From a virus (taxonomy: Duplodnaviria > Heunggongvirae > Uroviricota > Caudoviricetes): a stretch of 64,000 bases of DNA. The position numbers were made by a program, and so were the translations under genes. The notes below the pieces were generated by a model. That model was not told where the DNA came from. It saw only the letters and a list, made by a program, of their open reading frames with translations, and ran no database searches. Where the stretch lies: positions 137,185 through 201,184 of the IMG/VR virus record IMGVR_UViG_3300033146_004404; one strand, given 5' to 3'. This document shows, in pieces, positions 14,624-49,715 of this stretch; within the stretch, counting starts at the first letter, position 1; the number at the start of each line of letters is the position of its first letter.

Positions 14624-14983
14624 TTAATCCTCATCCTCATCTTCATCGTCTCTTTCTTTAACTTTACCTTTGAAGATTTCTTCTATTTCTTTTTTAACAA
14701 GTTCAAGCTTATCCATTGCAACTTCATGAAGTTTTTCAACATCTGCTTCTTTTTCATCGTCATCATCTCTACCTCGTCCAAGACCAGGACCAGAGAATGG
14801 CCCGCCCATACGCATGCCATTTCCTCTATTGCAAATGTCACGTTTGATGAATTTTAATTCTCTAAGCAGATTAGAGAACGCTCCAAGAAGTCTACTTTCA
14901 GCTTCCATAGTTTTAAACTGACTGACATCAGATTCGTTTATAATCACTCCTGAGTTTTTTTTCATTTCTTCCATTAGGTTCAT
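14624..14983 (-). CDS. Hypothetical acidic protein with LMEE..NSGV..NE leader
   Basis: RBS GGA; shares the N-terminal motif with other late genes. Confidence 0.65.
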   Translation of the reverse strand: MNLMEEMKKNSGVIINESDVSQFKTMEAESRLLGAFSNLLRELKFIKRDICNRGNGMRMGGPFSGPGLGRGRDDDDEKEADVEKLHEVAMDKLELVKKEIEEIFKGKVKERDDEDEDED

Positions 14984-14992
14984 TTTTTTCTC

Positions 14993-15322
14993 CTAGAAAA
15001 CTTCTTCTTCAGTTTCCTTGTCCTTATCTTCACTATTTAAGTCTTCATCATTTTTCTTGACTCTAACTTGCACTAAAGGATATTTTTGTTTATCTATTCT
15101 TATGCTTTTACCAGTTTGTTTGAAATCAGCTACTGCTTCTTTCCCTATCCACTTTTTGAAAAGCATGAAGTCGTTTAAGGATTTTTCAAGAACAAAAGCT
15201 TTGCCTGTGTCAATTTGTTTCATTACTACTACAGGGCCTGATTTAATTTCACTTTCTAAAAATTTTACTTTCTGTCCTCTTTGTGTCTCACTTTGCTGTG
15301 TTATAAATTCATTTAATGTCAT
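14993..15322 (-). CDS. Hypothetical protein
   Basis: RBS AAGGGA; operonic position. Confidence 0.6.
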   Translation of the reverse strand: MTLNEFITQQSETQRGQKVKFLESEIKSGPVVVMKQIDTGKAFVLEKSLNDFMLFKKWIGKEAVADFKQTGKSIRIDKQKYPLVQVRVKKNDEDLNSEDKDKETEEEVF

Positions 15323-15420
15323 GGTTCCCTTCTGAATTTTGATATATGTCGGAAATTAATTTCCGACATAGAGAACCACAGTTCTCATTAATAATATAGT
15401 AGAAATCAGAGATTTCTACT
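15322..15420 (-). promoter_or_regulatory. Structured intergenic region: 26-bp perfect palindrome plus RBS-pairing stem and a second hairpin
   Basis: TATGTCGGAAATTAATTTCCGACATA at 15345-15370; TGGTTC/GAACCA outer stem; AGTAGAAATC-AGA-GATTTCTACT hairpin. Confidence 0.55.
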
Positions 15421-46666: not shown

Positions 46667-46672
46667 TCTTAT

Positions 46673-49021
46673 ATGAGAATACTAAGAAAAATAACAAAAC
46701 GAGAATTGAAAGATCATCTGTATGAACTTAATACAGATGATCTTAGTCTTTATAAGGAAGCTAATAACCCTAATTCAATTGGAATCTTCCAATTGAATGG
46801 CGCTCTTGCTAGTGAGATTATAAAGAAAGTTAGACCTTCATGCTTCGACGAAATAAATGCTGTGTCTGCATTCGCCAGACCAGGAACCTCAAGCTTCGTA
46901 GAACAATACGTAGAAAACAGAGAAACAAAAAAATCTCCTTATTCAAATCAAGTAGCTGACTTGCTTACTGAAACAAACAGTATTTGTTTATATCAGGAAC
47001 AAGCCATGTCTATTTTTAACAAGATAGGTGGGTTCTCACTCGAAGAGTGCGACGGAATCAGAGGTCTTATGAAAAAGCTTGGAAAGGCAGATAAGAAAAA
47101 AGAAGATCTTGATAGATGGAATGTTATCATAGCTCAGTTTAATAAAGGCGCAGTTGAAAAAGGCATGTCAATCAAAGATGCTAAAATGATAGCAGCCGAC
47201 CTTTTGAAAATGAGTTCTTATAATTTTAACAAGTGTTTCTCTGGCGACATGGTTATAGATAAAGATAATTCTACTGGCTGGGTTCCTACTATAGAAGAAA
47301 TGTATCTTACAAGAAACGATAGAGAGTGGGCCAAAAATAACGGGCATGATTTTCTTCATTATAAGTATAAAACAAAGGGGTATGTCTCTGGATTTTCTTT
47401 ACAGGAAGATGGAAAGCTCTATAAGAATAAAATAAAAAATATTTATTTTCAAGGTAAAAAAGATGTTTATAGAATAACTCTTGAAAACGGAAAGATGATA
47501 GAAGTCACTGATAATCATAGGTTTCCGGTAATAATTGAAGGCGAAGTAGAATATAAAAGTATTGATTCTGGATTATCTATCAATGACTCTCTTTTATCTA
47601 ACGATGGATATGAGATAACGGATTTTAAAGGAAAATATAATTTTACAAAAAAAAATAATGAAACAAGAAAATTTAAAACTGCAGTTTACTATGGAAGTGG
47701 AGAAAAAAATACTGGTTATATAAATGGTGAGTCTATTAAATTTAAAGAGAATAGAAAAATTCTTCTAGAACAAGCTGAAAATATTTGTCCTATTTGCGGA
47801 AATAATATAAATAGAAAAGAATGCCATCATATCGATGGCAATAGATACAATAACGAACTTGAAAATCTTATAGTCCTTTGTCCTTCTTGCCATAAAAAAG
47901 AAGATTATAAAATTGGCAGAAATAGAAAAGGAGATAAGGGGAAAATTACATCTTTATCTAAGATCGTTTCCATTGAAAAGATCGGTGAAAAAAATACGTA
48001 TGATGTCGAAATGAACGCACCTTTTCATACAGTTTCTGTAAATGGAATAGTTGCTCACAATAGCCACAGTACAGCATATGCTTATATAGCGGCACAGACA
48101 CTTTACCTCTCATATTATTTCCGTAAGTATTTTTATGCTTCTGTTCTTCACTATGAAGTTGGAAGAGATAAGTACTTAATAGAGAGATTGAAAGCGGTTA
48201 AGAAACAAGGCTTTAACATTCTTCCTCCAAACATCAATAAGTCAAAAGTAGCAATCTCTCCAACTGGAGATGACAATATTGTTTTTGGCTTATTCGATAT
48301 TAAAGGAGTTGGTGAAGTTCCTGCAACTACAATAGTTTCACTACAGCCATTCGGTTCATTTGAAGATTTCTTAATAAGAATTCTTGGGCAGAAAGTGTCA
48401 GTAACGGTAATAAAAGCACTGATTGGAGTTGGAGCTTTTGATGAGATTTATAACCTTGATAGAAAAAGACTGATCGAAACTTTTGATATTTATTGGAAAA
48501 ATAAAAAGAGTACGAAAGTACCAGAAAAGCTTTTAGCTGTCTGGGAGGCCGCTCAGGAAGAAATCAGGGCAATTCCTGACATGACCGCTTCCATTGAAGA
48601 ACTTAGAGATTTAGAAAAGAAGTACTTTGGGTTCAATTTTTTCTTGAGTCCATTCAACGAAAAATTTATTGATGCTGTTGATTTAATGGTAACTAAGGGA
48701 ATGATCTATAGAAACTTTGAAGTTATTAAAACTGGATCTATGAAGGTTCCAGCAATAGTTAGCGGCATAAGAATACTTAATGACAGGAACGGAAATGAGA
48801 TGGCATTTCTTGAGCTTGAGGATATTGAAGGTGAATCAATAAGTATTCCTATCTTTCAAAGTTTCTGGAAAGTATTGAAAGCAAGATTTATTCAGGGAAA
48901 AGTTCATATGATAAATCTTTATTACAATAAAGAACAAGAGCAGATAATGTTTGGAAGTAAAAGGTTCATAAAGAAAGAAACAGAAATATCAAGACTTGTG
49001 AAACGATTAGATAATCTTTGA
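46673..49021 (+). CDS. dnaE: DnaE fragment 4 (fingers, HhH, OB) with cis intein
   Basis: GIFQL, RPG, YQEQ, YNFNK|intein|SHSTAYA, PPNINKS, GL..IKGVG, MAFLELED. Confidence 0.92.
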   Translation: MRILRKITKRELKDHLYELNTDDLSLYKEANNPNSIGIFQLNGALASEIIKKVRPSCFDEINAVSAFARPGTSSFVEQYVENRETKKSPYSNQVADLLTETNSICLYQEQAMSIFNKIGGFSLEECDGIRGLMKKLGKADKKKEDLDRWNVIIAQFNKGAVEKGMSIKDAKMIAADLLKMSSYNFNKCFSGDMVIDKDNSTGWVPTIEEMYLTRNDREWAKNNGHDFLHYKYKTKGYVSGFSLQEDGKLYKNKIKNIYFQGKKDVYRITLENGKMIEVTDNHRFPVIIEGEVEYKSIDSGLSINDSLLSNDGYEITDFKGKYNFTKKNNETRKFKTAVYYGSGEKNTGYINGESIKFKENRKILLEQAENICPICGNNINRKECHHIDGNRYNNELENLIVLCPSCHKKEDYKIGRNRKGDKGKITSLSKIVSIEKIGEKNTYDVEMNAPFHTVSVNGIVAHNSHSTAYAYIAAQTLYLSYYFRKYFYASVLHYEVGRDKYLIERLKAVKKQGFNILPPNINKSKVAISPTGDDNIVFGLFDIKGVGEVPATTIVSLQPFGSFEDFLIRILGQKVSVTVIKALIGVGAFDEIYNLDRKRLIETFDIYWKNKKSTKVPEKLLAVWEAAQEEIRAIPDMTASIEELRDLEKKYFGFNFFLSPFNEKFIDAVDLMVTKGMIYRNFEVIKTGSMKVPAIVSGIRILNDRNGNEMAFLELEDIEGESISIPIFQSFWKVLKARFIQGKVHMINLYYNKEQEQIMFGSKRFIKKETEISRLVKRLDNL
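47234..48061 (+). mobile_element. Cis intein with HNH endonuclease (276 aa)
   Basis: Starts CFSGD; TDNHRF; CPIC..HHIDGN..NNELENLIVLCPSCH; ends VAHN followed by S. Confidence 0.92.
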
Positions 49022-49058
49022 TGTAAAGGTAATAATATCAAACGATAAAAGGAAAAAT

Positions 49059-49715
49059 ATGTTATTAACAGAAGAGATTAGAAAGAATGCAGGGTATGAA
49101 ATAGATGAAGGTCGATATTTGACAGAAACAGAAAAAGAGTTTTTAACAGAAGCTAAGAAAAGAGCTTCTGAAAAAATTAATGATGTTTTAGACATCCTAA
49201 AGAAACAAGAAAGAAGAGCTCGTTTACATGCAGAAGAGTACGGCTCTTCAGAAGCTCGATCATACGCAACTAAGTGGGAAAAAGTAGTTGAATCCACTGA
49301 AAAATTTGTAAAAGACTTTGCCCAGACTGAAAAGGATCTAAAAAAAACTAAGTTTAATAGAAATAGAAAAGAGTTTTTTAAGGCTAAAATTGAAAGGTTG
49401 AAAAAAAGCCATAAGTTATTATATGCTGAAGCTAAGGAATTAGATAGAGCTAGGAATGAAGCTAAGAAAGTTGCAAAGAAAAGTATTAAGTTTTCATATG
49501 CTGCTATAGTGATAGCACCTTTAATTTTAGGTTTAGGGTCAGCTATATTTCCTCCTCTTGCAGCATTTTTAGCAGCAGTAGTAGCTTCTACAGTCACTGC
49601 AGTACTTCCTTCAGAACATTATAGAAAAAAATCGGATAAGATGAAAAGCGCAGCTAGAAATAGATTAGTTAATAGTAGAGATGAGGATGAATTGTTTAAG
49701 AGCGTGACTGATTAA
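49059..49715 (+). CDS. Leader-bearing membrane protein (paralogue)
   Basis: MLLTEEIRKNAGYEIDE; hydrophobic hairpin AAIVIAPLILGLGSAIFPPLAAFLAAVVA; late motif at 49023. Confidence 0.65.
   Translation: MLLTEEIRKNAGYEIDEGRYLTETEKEFLTEAKKRASEKINDVLDILKKQERRARLHAEEYGSSEARSYATKWEKVVESTEKFVKDFAQTEKDLKKTKFNRNRKEFFKAKIERLKKSHKLLYAEAKELDRARNEAKKVAKKSIKFSYAAIVIAPLILGLGSAIFPPLAAFLAAVVASTVTAVLPSEHYRKKSDKMKSAARNRLVNSRDEDELFKSVTD

What the first reader, a model, noticed from the sequence alone, without database searches (positions are those of the whole stretch)
14624..49715. Dispersed family of putatively head-packaged membrane proteins with a shared targeting leader
Seen: near-identical leaders L(M/I/T)EE(I/M)xxN(S/A)G(V/Y)..(L/I)xE in five unlinked genes (14624, 15416, 43167, 45891, 49059), plus paralogue 45142. 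Five of these six (all except 14624) continue with a roughly 100-aa basic helical domain and then one or two G/A-rich hydrophobic helices, and each of those five has the late motif directly upstream. 45142 and 45891 align clearly (EG..FFKTSK...YIKK.EKKN..G..D.LI..L...F...E.MH..G....AK.LY). None has a Sec-type signal peptide. Established: T4 internal proteins use an N-terminal capsid targeting sequence that gp21 cleaves after (L/I)xE. Inference: a diversified set of membrane-inserting proteins is loaded into the capsid and ejected with the DNA, as an entry channel, superinfection exclusion or anti-defence effectors. This is a strong candidate for an undescribed system.
Basis: partly seen in the sequence, partly recalled or inferred. 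Interest (0 to 1): 0.82.

Follow-up and report, generated by a model that had tools for sequence, protein, structure and literature searches.

The report
Shared head-targeting-like leader on late phage proteins
An uncultured T4-like phage puts the same short N-terminal tag, ending in a head-protease cutting motif, on several unrelated late proteins, most of them membrane-type, which suggests (unproven) a T4-style address label for loading cargo into the capsid.

Summary
Five genes in the window start with the box M-x-L-x-E-E-(I/M)-x-x-N-(S/A)-G, followed within 3-6 residues by an (L/I)xE motif. These are the only five matches in the 201-kb genome.

The genome is a divergent T4-like myovirus with a gp21-type (S77) prohead protease.

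Five of the six genes, including paralogue 45142, belong to one family. It has over 100 metagenomic clusters. Its architecture is a short N-peptide, an invariant E-G junction, a G(I/L)xFFKxSKR helical bundle, a TM helix and a variable C-terminus that is sometimes an SLT transglycosylase.

The box is modular:
- In related phages it heads a ferritin-like protein and several unrelated small proteins arrayed around gene 21.
- It heads the family that includes the gene at 14624.
- It also occurs inside two other proteins.

The five family genes carry the promoter motif GTAAAG(A/G/T)TAA shared with sheath, fibre and gp22/gp23 genes. Neighbouring replication genes carry a 29-nt sigma-70-type early promoter instead.

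Best reading (about 0.55): a capsid-targeting propeptide cut by the prohead protease, analogous to but not homologous with the T4 CTS. Packaging, cleavage and ejection of the membrane-type proteins remain untested.

I class it as a new variant of a known kind. Other first-stage notes of this scan made the same observation on this genome.

The parts
14624..14983 (-). 119-aa acidic-tailed small protein with the leader MNLMEEMKKNSGVIINE|S. No TM segment. It belongs to a separate family that is always encoded just upstream of a DHH gene.
   Evidence: Twenty homologues all keep the box plus (L/I)NE and an acidic C-tail.
15416..16228 (-). 270-aa member of the FFK/TM family. The leader starts at residue 9 and ends ...NSGVYELNE|G. 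TM-like segments at residues 123-154 and 223-245.
16259..16269 (-). Late-type promoter motif TGTAAAGATAA, 41 nt upstream of the 15416-16228 gene.
43130..43140 (+). Late-type promoter motif TGTAAAGATAA, 37 nt upstream of 43167.
43167..44630 (+). 487-aa family member with the leader MTLIEEIRRNSGVELNE|T. It has a helical region, a TM-like segment at about 120-140, and an extra ~250-aa C-terminal domain containing HELTH (an HExxH motif).
   Evidence: The C-terminal domain has only weak leads: WLM E=0.37; M78/ArdC-type models with TM-score below 0.5; no homologues.
45041..45126 (+). Three tandem copies of the late motif, each paired with a hairpin repeat, upstream of 45142.
45142..45843 (+). 233-aa family member with a degenerate box but the canonical junction YLVE|GIRFFKTSKK. 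TM-like segment at 100-127.
   Evidence: (E=3e-26 against 45879).
45851..45861 (+). Late-type motif TGTAAAGTTAA upstream of 45879/45891.
45879..46613 (+). 244-aa family member (240 aa from the ATG at 45891). It has the leader MNLMEEITSNAGVEYLE, a second junction ITE|GLVFFKTSKR, and a G/A-rich TM region at about 121-149.
46638..46666 (+). Contrast element: a 29-nt early sigma-70-type promoter (12/12 consensus match) serving the DnaE piece that follows the late gene.
   Evidence: There are 41 copies in the genome, none before a family gene.
49022..49032 (+). Late-type motif TGTAAAGGTAA, 37 nt upstream of 49059.
49059..49715 (+). 218-aa family member with the leader MLLTEEIRKNAGYEIDE|G. Long hydrophobic region at 142-185.
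12981..14621 (-). Context: a 546-aa DHH-family protein immediately downstream of 14624, with a late-like motif GGTAAAGTTAA at 14668-14658. In a relative the orthologue carries an internal leader-like ...HILSNSGMELNE|S before an extra C-terminal domain.

Best explanation
The shared N-terminus is a modular propeptide. It consists of a 13-residue box, M-x-L-x-E-E-(I/M/V)-x-x-N-(S/A)-G-x, followed closely by an (L/I)xE site.

Inferred mechanism: the box addresses late-made proteins to the prohead scaffolding core of this T4-like phage. The gp21-type S77 prohead protease then cuts it off after the Glu. This is the logic of the T4 capsid targeting sequence (CTS) on internal proteins.

Five of the six window genes are paralogues of a large metagenomic family. 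Its parts are an N-peptide, an (L/I)xE-G junction, a basic four-helix-type domain starting G(I/L)xFFKxSKR, one or two G/A-rich hydrophobic helices, and a variable C-terminus.

The most likely role of these five is head-internal cargo that becomes membrane-active after ejection. The sixth gene (14624) is a gp67-like acidic core-type protein.

Shown here:
- the motif, its statistics and its modularity;
- its genomic association with head genes in relatives;
- a protease gene in the genome;
- the promoter class of the five family genes.

Inferred only: targeting, cleavage, packaging, ejection and membrane insertion.
For: 1. Specificity. The box occurs exactly 5 times in the genome, always at an ORF start. 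The leader HMM gives 19-24 bits for these five and no more than 7 bits for anything else.

2. Peptide-level selection. Box residues are 7-10/13 identical, but only 2-7/13 codons are.

3. Coupling to a protease motif. 42/48 box-bearing proteins have (L/I)xE ending within 12 aa, against 38/456 control windows. For proteins outside the FFK family the figure is 9/10.

4. Junction conservation. In the 78-sequence family alignment the junction Glu is the only invariant residue and the next Gly is at least 90% conserved. 96/107 members match (L/I)xE-G...FFK.

5. Protease and capsid site. An S77 protease (E=4.6e-21) and gp23 (E=1.8e-59) are present. The gp23 segment that BLASTP aligns to T4's known LTE|A maturation site reads LLNE-DELNE-A. 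That is the same ELNE that ends two of the leaders. In relative G005 it reads EINE|A.

6. Modularity. In relative G004 (207 kb, S77-positive) the box heads at least 8 ORFs. These include a ferritin-like protein (Pfam E=2.5e-16). They are unrelated beyond residue 20 except for one pair. G004 has no FFK family member.

7. Head-module location.
- In G004, five genes opening MTLRE lie between portal and gene 21; two of them carry the full box. A sixth, with the full box, lies between genes 21 and 22.
- In G005, a box gene abuts TerL and an FFK gene directly follows gene 23.
- In G003, a protein between genes 21 and 22 has an internal ...ILHNAGLILNE.

8. Promoter class. GTAAAG(A/G/T)TAA, or close variants, precedes tail sheath, an adaptor-like gene, tail fibre, a gp25-like gene, gp22 and gp23. 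A different 29-nt early promoter (41 copies) precedes gp32 and the DnaE pieces, and never a family gene.

9. The 14624 family. All 20 homologues keep the box plus (L/I)NE.

10. Published precedent. gp21 cuts after L/I-x-E, and a 10-residue CTS is the only feature shared by diverse T-even internal proteins (PMC9026906, PMC3012670).
Against: - There is no experimental datum. The clade has no cultured member: gp23 is about 25% identical to any GenBank phage, and no family hit was found in 50,697 phage records.
- The box has no similarity to the T4 CTS. The leader HMM finds nothing in T4, and an apparent likeness to the gp67 N-terminus did not score.
- Proteins with strongly hydrophobic helices are unusual capsid cargo for a myovirus. 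On synthesis they might instead insert into the producer's membrane.
- In SLT-bearing family members the SLT lies C-terminal to the TM. This also fits a resident N-in/C-out membrane enzyme.
- About two thirds of family members lack the box.
- Three closer relatives (136 kb of fragments, including head modules) show no N-terminal box.
- (L/I)xE is a short motif in Glu/Leu-rich proteins.
- In 45879 the first site after the box is YLE, with Leu at P2, not a strict match.
- Late timing is inferred from promoter sharing only.
Confidence: 0.55

Rival explanations
1. Resident late inner-membrane proteins. On this reading the FFK/TM paralogues are inserted into the producer cell's membrane with the N-terminus in and the C-terminus out. 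They would act there in lysis timing (holin/antiholin-like), as membrane-tethered muralytic enzymes, in superinfection exclusion, or in anchoring assembly. The N-terminal box would be a cytoplasmic interaction or regulatory motif that need not lead to packaging.
For: - Every member has TM-like segments with KD values of 1.7-2.6.
- The N-terminal side is basic, which fits the positive-inside rule.
- In four scanned family members the SLT domain lies after the TM, where it would face the periplasm.
- There are weak PHROG 'hemolysin' (XhlA-type) hits for 15416 (E=4.8e-4) and 45879 (E=0.012).
- A late promoter class fits lysis functions.
- T4 proheads do assemble on the membrane and leave it after gp21 action (PMC9026906).
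Against: - It does not explain why the same box plus (L/I)xE heads soluble, unrelated proteins (ferritin-like, 88-175-aa proteins, the 14624 family).
- It does not explain why those genes sit around gene 21.
- Five to six paralogues per genome is atypical for holins.
- No holin or spanin family hit was found.
- The genome has a separate signal-peptide SLT enzyme elsewhere.
- An invariant Glu-Gly junction is unexplained.
Confidence: 0.27
2. Core or scaffold components rather than delivered effectors. On this reading the box-bearing proteins are built into the prohead core like T4 gp67/gp68/gp22. The protease then degrades them and they are expelled before DNA packaging, so nothing is ejected into the next host. 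This reading applies best to 14624.
For: - 14624 and its 20 homologues combine the leader, helices and a long acidic tail, as T4 gp67 and gp22 do.
- Box genes occupy the gp67/gp68 position in G004.
- T4 core proteins are cut at L/I-x-E.
Against: - A ferritin-like enzyme fold, SLT-bearing relatives and TM proteins look like cargo or effectors, not scaffold.
- The mature parts lack the multiple internal (L/I)xE sites that are typical of degraded core proteins. This was not counted rigorously.
Confidence: 0.13
3. The shared leader is a chance or compositional resemblance, or a by-product of recent DNA duplication of gene starts.
For: The genome is AT-rich and its proteins are rich in E, K and L. 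Promoters are also shared upstream of the genes.
Against: - No further matches occur in 201 kb.
- Scores separate cleanly: 19-24 bits against 7 or fewer.
- Synonymous codon differences argue against copied DNA.
- The box is conserved in dozens of metagenomic homologues and on unrelated proteins.
Confidence: 0.01

Closest known systems
T4 capsid targeting sequence (CTS) on internal proteins IPI/IPII/IPIII (and Alt), removed by the gp21 prohead protease
   Same: Both are short N-terminal peptides shared by otherwise unrelated proteins. Both end in (L/I)xE and occur in a phage with an S77 gp21-type protease. Both are expressed late. The cargo set is diversified and its genes are scattered or arrayed.
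   Different: There is no sequence similarity to MKTYQEFIAE. The element here is longer: a 13-aa box plus a 3-12-aa spacer. The box also occurs internally in two proteins of relatives. Cargo includes proteins with hydrophobic TM-like helices, a ferritin-like protein and possibly a DHH enzyme. Nothing has been shown experimentally.
Ejection (E) / internal virion proteins of T7 (gp14-16, gp16 with an SLT domain) and P22 (gp7, gp16, gp20)
   Same: If packaged, the FFK proteins would be capsid-internal proteins with hydrophobic segments. In some family members they would also carry a lytic transglycosylase, as T7 gp16 does.
   Different: There is no homology apart from the SLT domain itself. The host virus is a contractile-tailed T4-like phage, where the tail tube and tape measure are thought to cross the envelope. 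The window's own five paralogues lack SLT.
Propeptide-bearing head proteins of giant phages (phiKZ, 201phi2-1, SPN3US), cut after (S/A)xE by gp21-related proteases
   Same: Many head-internal proteins carry N-terminal propeptides that a gp21-like protease removes after Glu. The cargo families are paralogous.
   Different: Those propeptides have no common conserved box. The motif here is (L/I)xE, as in T4.
Encapsulin cargo-loading peptides (for example on ferritin-like proteins)
   Same: A short terminal tag directs diverse cargo, including ferritin-like proteins, into an HK97-fold shell. Relative G004 has a box-tagged ferritin-like gene in its head module.
   Different: Encapsulin tags are C-terminal and are not cleaved. 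This is an analogy only, and it concerns a relative, not the window.

Membership tests
T4-type CTS / gp21-processed head-internal proteins | A short N-terminal peptide shared by proteins that are otherwise unrelated | tested here: met
   The box is found on the FFK/TM family, the 14624 family, a ferritin-like protein and several unrelated small proteins.
T4-type CTS / gp21-processed head-internal proteins | The peptide ends in the gp21 cleavage motif (L/I)-x-E | tested here: met
   42/48 proteins have it within 12 aa, against 8% of control windows. The window genes read IINE, ELNE, ELNE, IDE, and YLE followed by LEE.
T4-type CTS / gp21-processed head-internal proteins | The genome encodes an S77 (gp21) prohead protease and a gp23 with a matching maturation site | tested here: met
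   PF03420 E=4.6e-21. gp23 reads LLNE-DELNE-A where T4 has LTE|A.
T4-type CTS / gp21-processed head-internal proteins | Sequence homology to the T4 CTS or T4 internal proteins | tested here: not met
   The leader HMM and the family HMM find nothing in the T4 six-frame translation. There are no Pfam or PHROG hits.
T4-type CTS / gp21-processed head-internal proteins | Late expression together with head genes | tested here: inconclusive
   The promoter motif is shared with structural genes and is distinct from the early promoter. No expression data exist. 14624 has no motif of its own.
T4-type CTS / gp21-processed head-internal proteins | Physical incorporation into proheads, removal of the peptide, presence in virions | not testable with these tools
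   The clade is uncultured and no proteome is available.
T7/P22-type ejection proteins | Homology to gp14/15/16 or gp7/16/20, or a muralytic domain in the protein itself | tested here: not met
   No hits for the window proteins. SLT occurs only in 6/78 metagenomic family members.
Holins / XhlA-type lysis membrane proteins | A significant family match, and a location next to an endolysin | tested here: not met
   The best match is phrog_1193 'hemolysin', E=4.8e-4, for one member only. The only SLT gene of the genome lies about 135 kb away behind a signal peptide.

The most novel reading that the evidence does not exclude
An uncultured clade of ~200-kb T4-like phages may use a dedicated, cleavable 13-residue address box to load a large and fast-evolving cargo set into the capsid.

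That cargo would include:
- a multi-paralogue family of membrane-inserting proteins, some carrying lytic transglycosylase domains;
- a ferritin-like protein;
- a DHH phosphoesterase.

On this reading a contractile-tailed phage would carry a podovirus-style 'ejectosome' or membrane-effector kit, plus encapsulin-like enzyme cargo.
Probability: 0.3. Interest if true: 0.8.

Novelty: new variant of a known kind. Interest (0 to 1): 0.62.

Why it matters
If the box is a working capsid address, three things follow.
- It would be the second, independent example of a CTS. A comparison could show what the prohead core actually recognises, which is still unknown for T4.
- It would give a sequence rule for reading the injected cargo of uncultured T4-like phages straight from metagenomes.
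- It would show that myovirus heads can carry membrane-active and enzymatic cargo (TM/SLT proteins, ferritin-like, DHH). That bears on entry, on superinfection exclusion and on counter-defence.

It could also serve as a new packaging tag for phage engineering.

If the rival is right, the family is still a large uncharacterised group of late phage membrane proteins with more than 100 clusters.

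Tried and rejected
- Pfam and PHROGs on the six proteins gave no significant family.
- blastn and tblastn against 50,697 GenBank phage records with the region, 45879, and two typical family members (P0029, P0006) gave no match.
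- Word-based homologue searches for 45879 and for the C-terminal domain of 43167 returned only the queries themselves.
- An apparent likeness between the box and the T4 gp67 N-terminus (MEGLIEAIKSNDLV) was tested. The leader HMM run against the complete T4 six-frame translation did not recover gp67 (best E=0.77, elsewhere), so I dropped it.
- The family HMM against T4 gave nothing. T4 gp40 has no resemblance.
- Foldseek of the AF2 model against PDB returned only generic helical bundles with E above 1. A profile search against PDB sequences gave a weak syntaxin Habc match (E=0.005), which I treat as compositional.
- For the HExxH domain of 43167 I found only sub-threshold leads: WLM E=0.37 and M78/ArdC-type Atlas models with TM-score below 0.5.
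- Complex prediction of the gp21 homologue with residues 1-45 of the 14624 family returned no verdict.
- The look-up of sequencing runs listed no run, and no RNA holder was listed.
- A leader-only search of the 5.8-billion-protein set was impossible because the E-value ceiling is 10.
- The genome search with the 13-column leader model on T4 produced no candidates, probably because the model is too short for its prefilter.
- Three relatives found through gp23 (G001-G003, 136 kb) have no N-terminal box.

Full report
**What the genome is.** The window is bases 137,185-201,184 of a 201,184-bp IMG/VR virus record estimated at 80% complete.

It is a T4-like myovirus. It encodes:
- gp23 (PF07068, E=1.8e-59) and a gp24-like paralogue;
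- an S77 gp21-type prohead protease (PF03420, E=4.6e-21);
- gp22, a portal and an intein-bearing TerL;
- tail sheath, a fibre and a gp25-like wedge protein;
- a hub protein, gp32, an intein-bearing UvsX, a gp2-like and a gp5-like protein.

It is very distant from anything cultured. Its gp23 is about 25% identical to the best GenBank phage hits.

The leader regex matches five times in the six-frame translation of the entire genome. Every match is at an ORF start and all are in the window.

A leader HMM scores these five at 19-24 bits and nothing else above 7 bits.

The box residues are 7-10/13 identical, but only 2-7 of 13 codons are identical. The peptide is therefore what is conserved, not recently copied DNA.

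45142 and 45879 are clear paralogues (39% identity, E=3e-26). 15416, 43167 and 49059 are weakly related to them. 14624 shares only the leader.

All five paralogues have hydrophobic segments beginning at residues 100-145.

An AF2 model of 45879 built on 78 homologues has this layout:
- a short leader helix at residues 3-10;
- a disordered linker;
- a confident helical bundle at 43-137, with pLDDT above 90;
- hydrophobic helices after that.

**A large hidden family.** A profile of the five paralogues finds about 100 further 50%-identity clusters among 1.84 billion proteins.

- 96/107 members contain (L/I)xE-G(I/L/V)x(F)FKxS near the N-terminus.
- 102/107 have a TM-like segment about 90 residues later.
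- In the 78-sequence alignment the junction Glu is the only invariant residue, and the following Gly is at least 90% conserved.
- About 37/107 also start with the box MxLxEEIxxN(S/A)G.
- Six of 78 carry an SLT lytic transglycosylase (E down to 1e-24), in the four scanned always C-terminal to the TM.
- No member occurs in GenBank phages or in T4.

**The box is a module, not a family trait.** A degenerate DNA pattern scan of IMG/VR, followed by local HMM searches, found it on other proteins in S77-encoding relatives.

G004 is a 207,680-bp S77-positive relative. At least eight of its ORFs start MTLREE(I/V)..NSG followed by (L/I)xE. They include a ferritin-like protein (Pfam E=2.5e-16). They are mutually unrelated beyond residue 20, except for one pair. 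G004 has no FFK-family member at all.

In the other direction, FFK members in G002 and G005 lack the box.

The 14624 family has 20 members. All keep the box, an (L/I)NE site and an acidic tail.

Box-like sequences also occur internally:
- ...HILSNSGMELNE|S lies inside a DHH fusion protein in a syntenic 203-kb contig.
- ...ILHNAGLILNE lies in a protein encoded between genes 21 and 22 of G003.

**Link to the head and the protease.** In G004, five genes opening MTLRE lie between the portal gene and gene 21, two of them carrying the full box. A sixth, with the full box, lies between genes 21 and 22.

In G005, a box gene directly precedes TerL and an FFK gene directly follows gene 23.

Across 48 box-bearing proteins, 42 have an (L/I)xE whose Glu lies within 12 residues of the box. 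The figure for control windows in the same proteins is 8%. For non-FFK proteins it is 9/10.

BLASTP aligns the known T4 gp23 maturation site (FLTE|A) with LLNE-DELNE-A in this phage's gp23. The same site reads EINE|A in G005. ELNE is exactly how two of the window leaders end.

Published work establishes two relevant facts (PMC9026906; PMC3012670):
- gp21 cuts after L/I-x-E;
- a 10-residue CTS is the only shared feature of the diverse T-even internal proteins.

**Promoter class.** TGTAAAG(A/G/T)TAA occurs 13 times in the genome, always 20-101 nt upstream of an ORF on the same strand. Seven of the 13 serve the five family genes.

The relaxed form precedes tail sheath, an adaptor-like protein, a tail fibre, a gp25-like protein, two large tail-region ORFs and HNH genes. 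Near-variants precede gp22 and gp23.

Separately, a 29-nt sigma-70-type promoter, TTGACAAAAAAAGAATAATATGGTATAAT, occurs 41 times. It precedes gp32, the DnaE pieces and many small genes, and never a family gene. One copy sits immediately after 45879 and serves the next DnaE piece.

The family genes are thus late-type islands inside an early replication block. 14624 has no motif of its own. It may be read through from the 15416 promoter, although a weak hairpin follows 15416.

**Interpretation.** The best-supported reading is a CTS-like, protease-removed propeptide (confidence about 0.55).

What the five membrane-type proteins do after that is open. There are three options:
The SLT-bearing relatives recall T7 gp16.
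- They may be resident late membrane proteins of the producer cell whose N-terminus contacts the assembling head.
- They may be core components that are degraded. This last option fits 14624 best.

No tool here can separate these options.

The kind of system, a shared cleavable address on diversified head cargo, is known from T-even phages. The new elements are the sequence, its length, its occasional internal position, the membrane-type, ferritin-like and DHH cargo, and the clade. I therefore class it as a new variant of a known kind.

Other first-stage notes of this scan reported the same leader and promoter motif on this genome. I tested both independently here.

Noticed in passing
whole genome; in the window at 17525, 26055, 28104, 33660, 35172, 36521, 40577, 46638, 50481, 53326 and 58123: A 29-nt, almost invariant early promoter, TTGACAAAAAAAGAATAATATGGTATAAT, occurs 41 times. 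It precedes gp32, the DnaE pieces and many small ORFs. This is an unusually rigid extended sigma-70 consensus with a conserved spacer.
   Followed up: partly
window 45041-45128 and 33636-33670: The late motif occurs in tandem triplicate. Before 45142 there are three promoter-plus-hairpin repeats. Before the 498-aa minus-strand ORF 32105-33601 there are three overlapping AGTAAAG(A/G)TAAT copies.
   Followed up: no
L084:8564-9088 (relative G004): A ferritin-like protein (Pfam Ferritin E=2.5e-16) carries the leader MTLREQILRNAGLLLE. Its gene lies between the portal gene and gene 21. This parallels ferritin-like cargo of encapsulins in HK97-fold shells.
   Followed up: partly
window 12981-14621; L025:7004-9124: A late-motif DHH-family phosphoesterase always sits next to the 14624 family. 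In a 203-kb relative it is fused, through an internal leader-like ...SNSGMELNE, to an extra ~115-aa domain. The window copy ends ...LKQKILENTRKY, as if truncated at that point.
   Followed up: partly
window 43167-44630, residues ~250-487: The C-terminal domain of the 487-aa paralogue contains HELTH (an HExxH motif). The only leads are weak ones to WLM/SprT or ImmA/IrrE/ArdC-type metallopeptidases. No homologues were found.
   Followed up: partly
window 12436-12933, 23310-25277 and 50144-50476: Other genes have leader-like starts. Two of them carry the late motif: MILEQLLEEIKYGKE... (165 aa) and MANLEN...AMLVE|G (655 aa). The third, with no late motif recorded, starts MMDFREILNEE... (110 aa). 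These may be degenerate versions of the same address.
   Followed up: no
genome 69210-69974 (outside the window): A 254-aa, very basic protein is encoded just upstream of gene 21. It contains ...SLVEEISLINE near its N-terminus, which is box-like. It is probably a head-core or internal protein.
   Followed up: no
window 2092-3162; genome 16282-16779: The gp5-like spike protein matches only the OB domain (PF04717). No T4-type lysozyme (PF00959) exists anywhere in the genome. The sole SLT enzyme is a 165-aa protein with a signal-peptide-like N-terminus in an early region. It is therefore unclear which enzyme opens the wall at entry.
   Followed up: partly
window 18500-20485 and 46673-49021; genome 74434-77415: Inteins or HNH insertions interrupt UvsX, a DnaE piece and TerL. 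DnaE is encoded in several pieces, each with its own early promoter.
   Followed up: no
L022 (relative G002) 18720-19304: A 194-aa ORF starts MKSFKNYIDENELNE| and is followed at once by a TM helix. This looks like another short N-peptide plus LNE junction on a membrane-type protein outside the FFK family.
   Followed up: no
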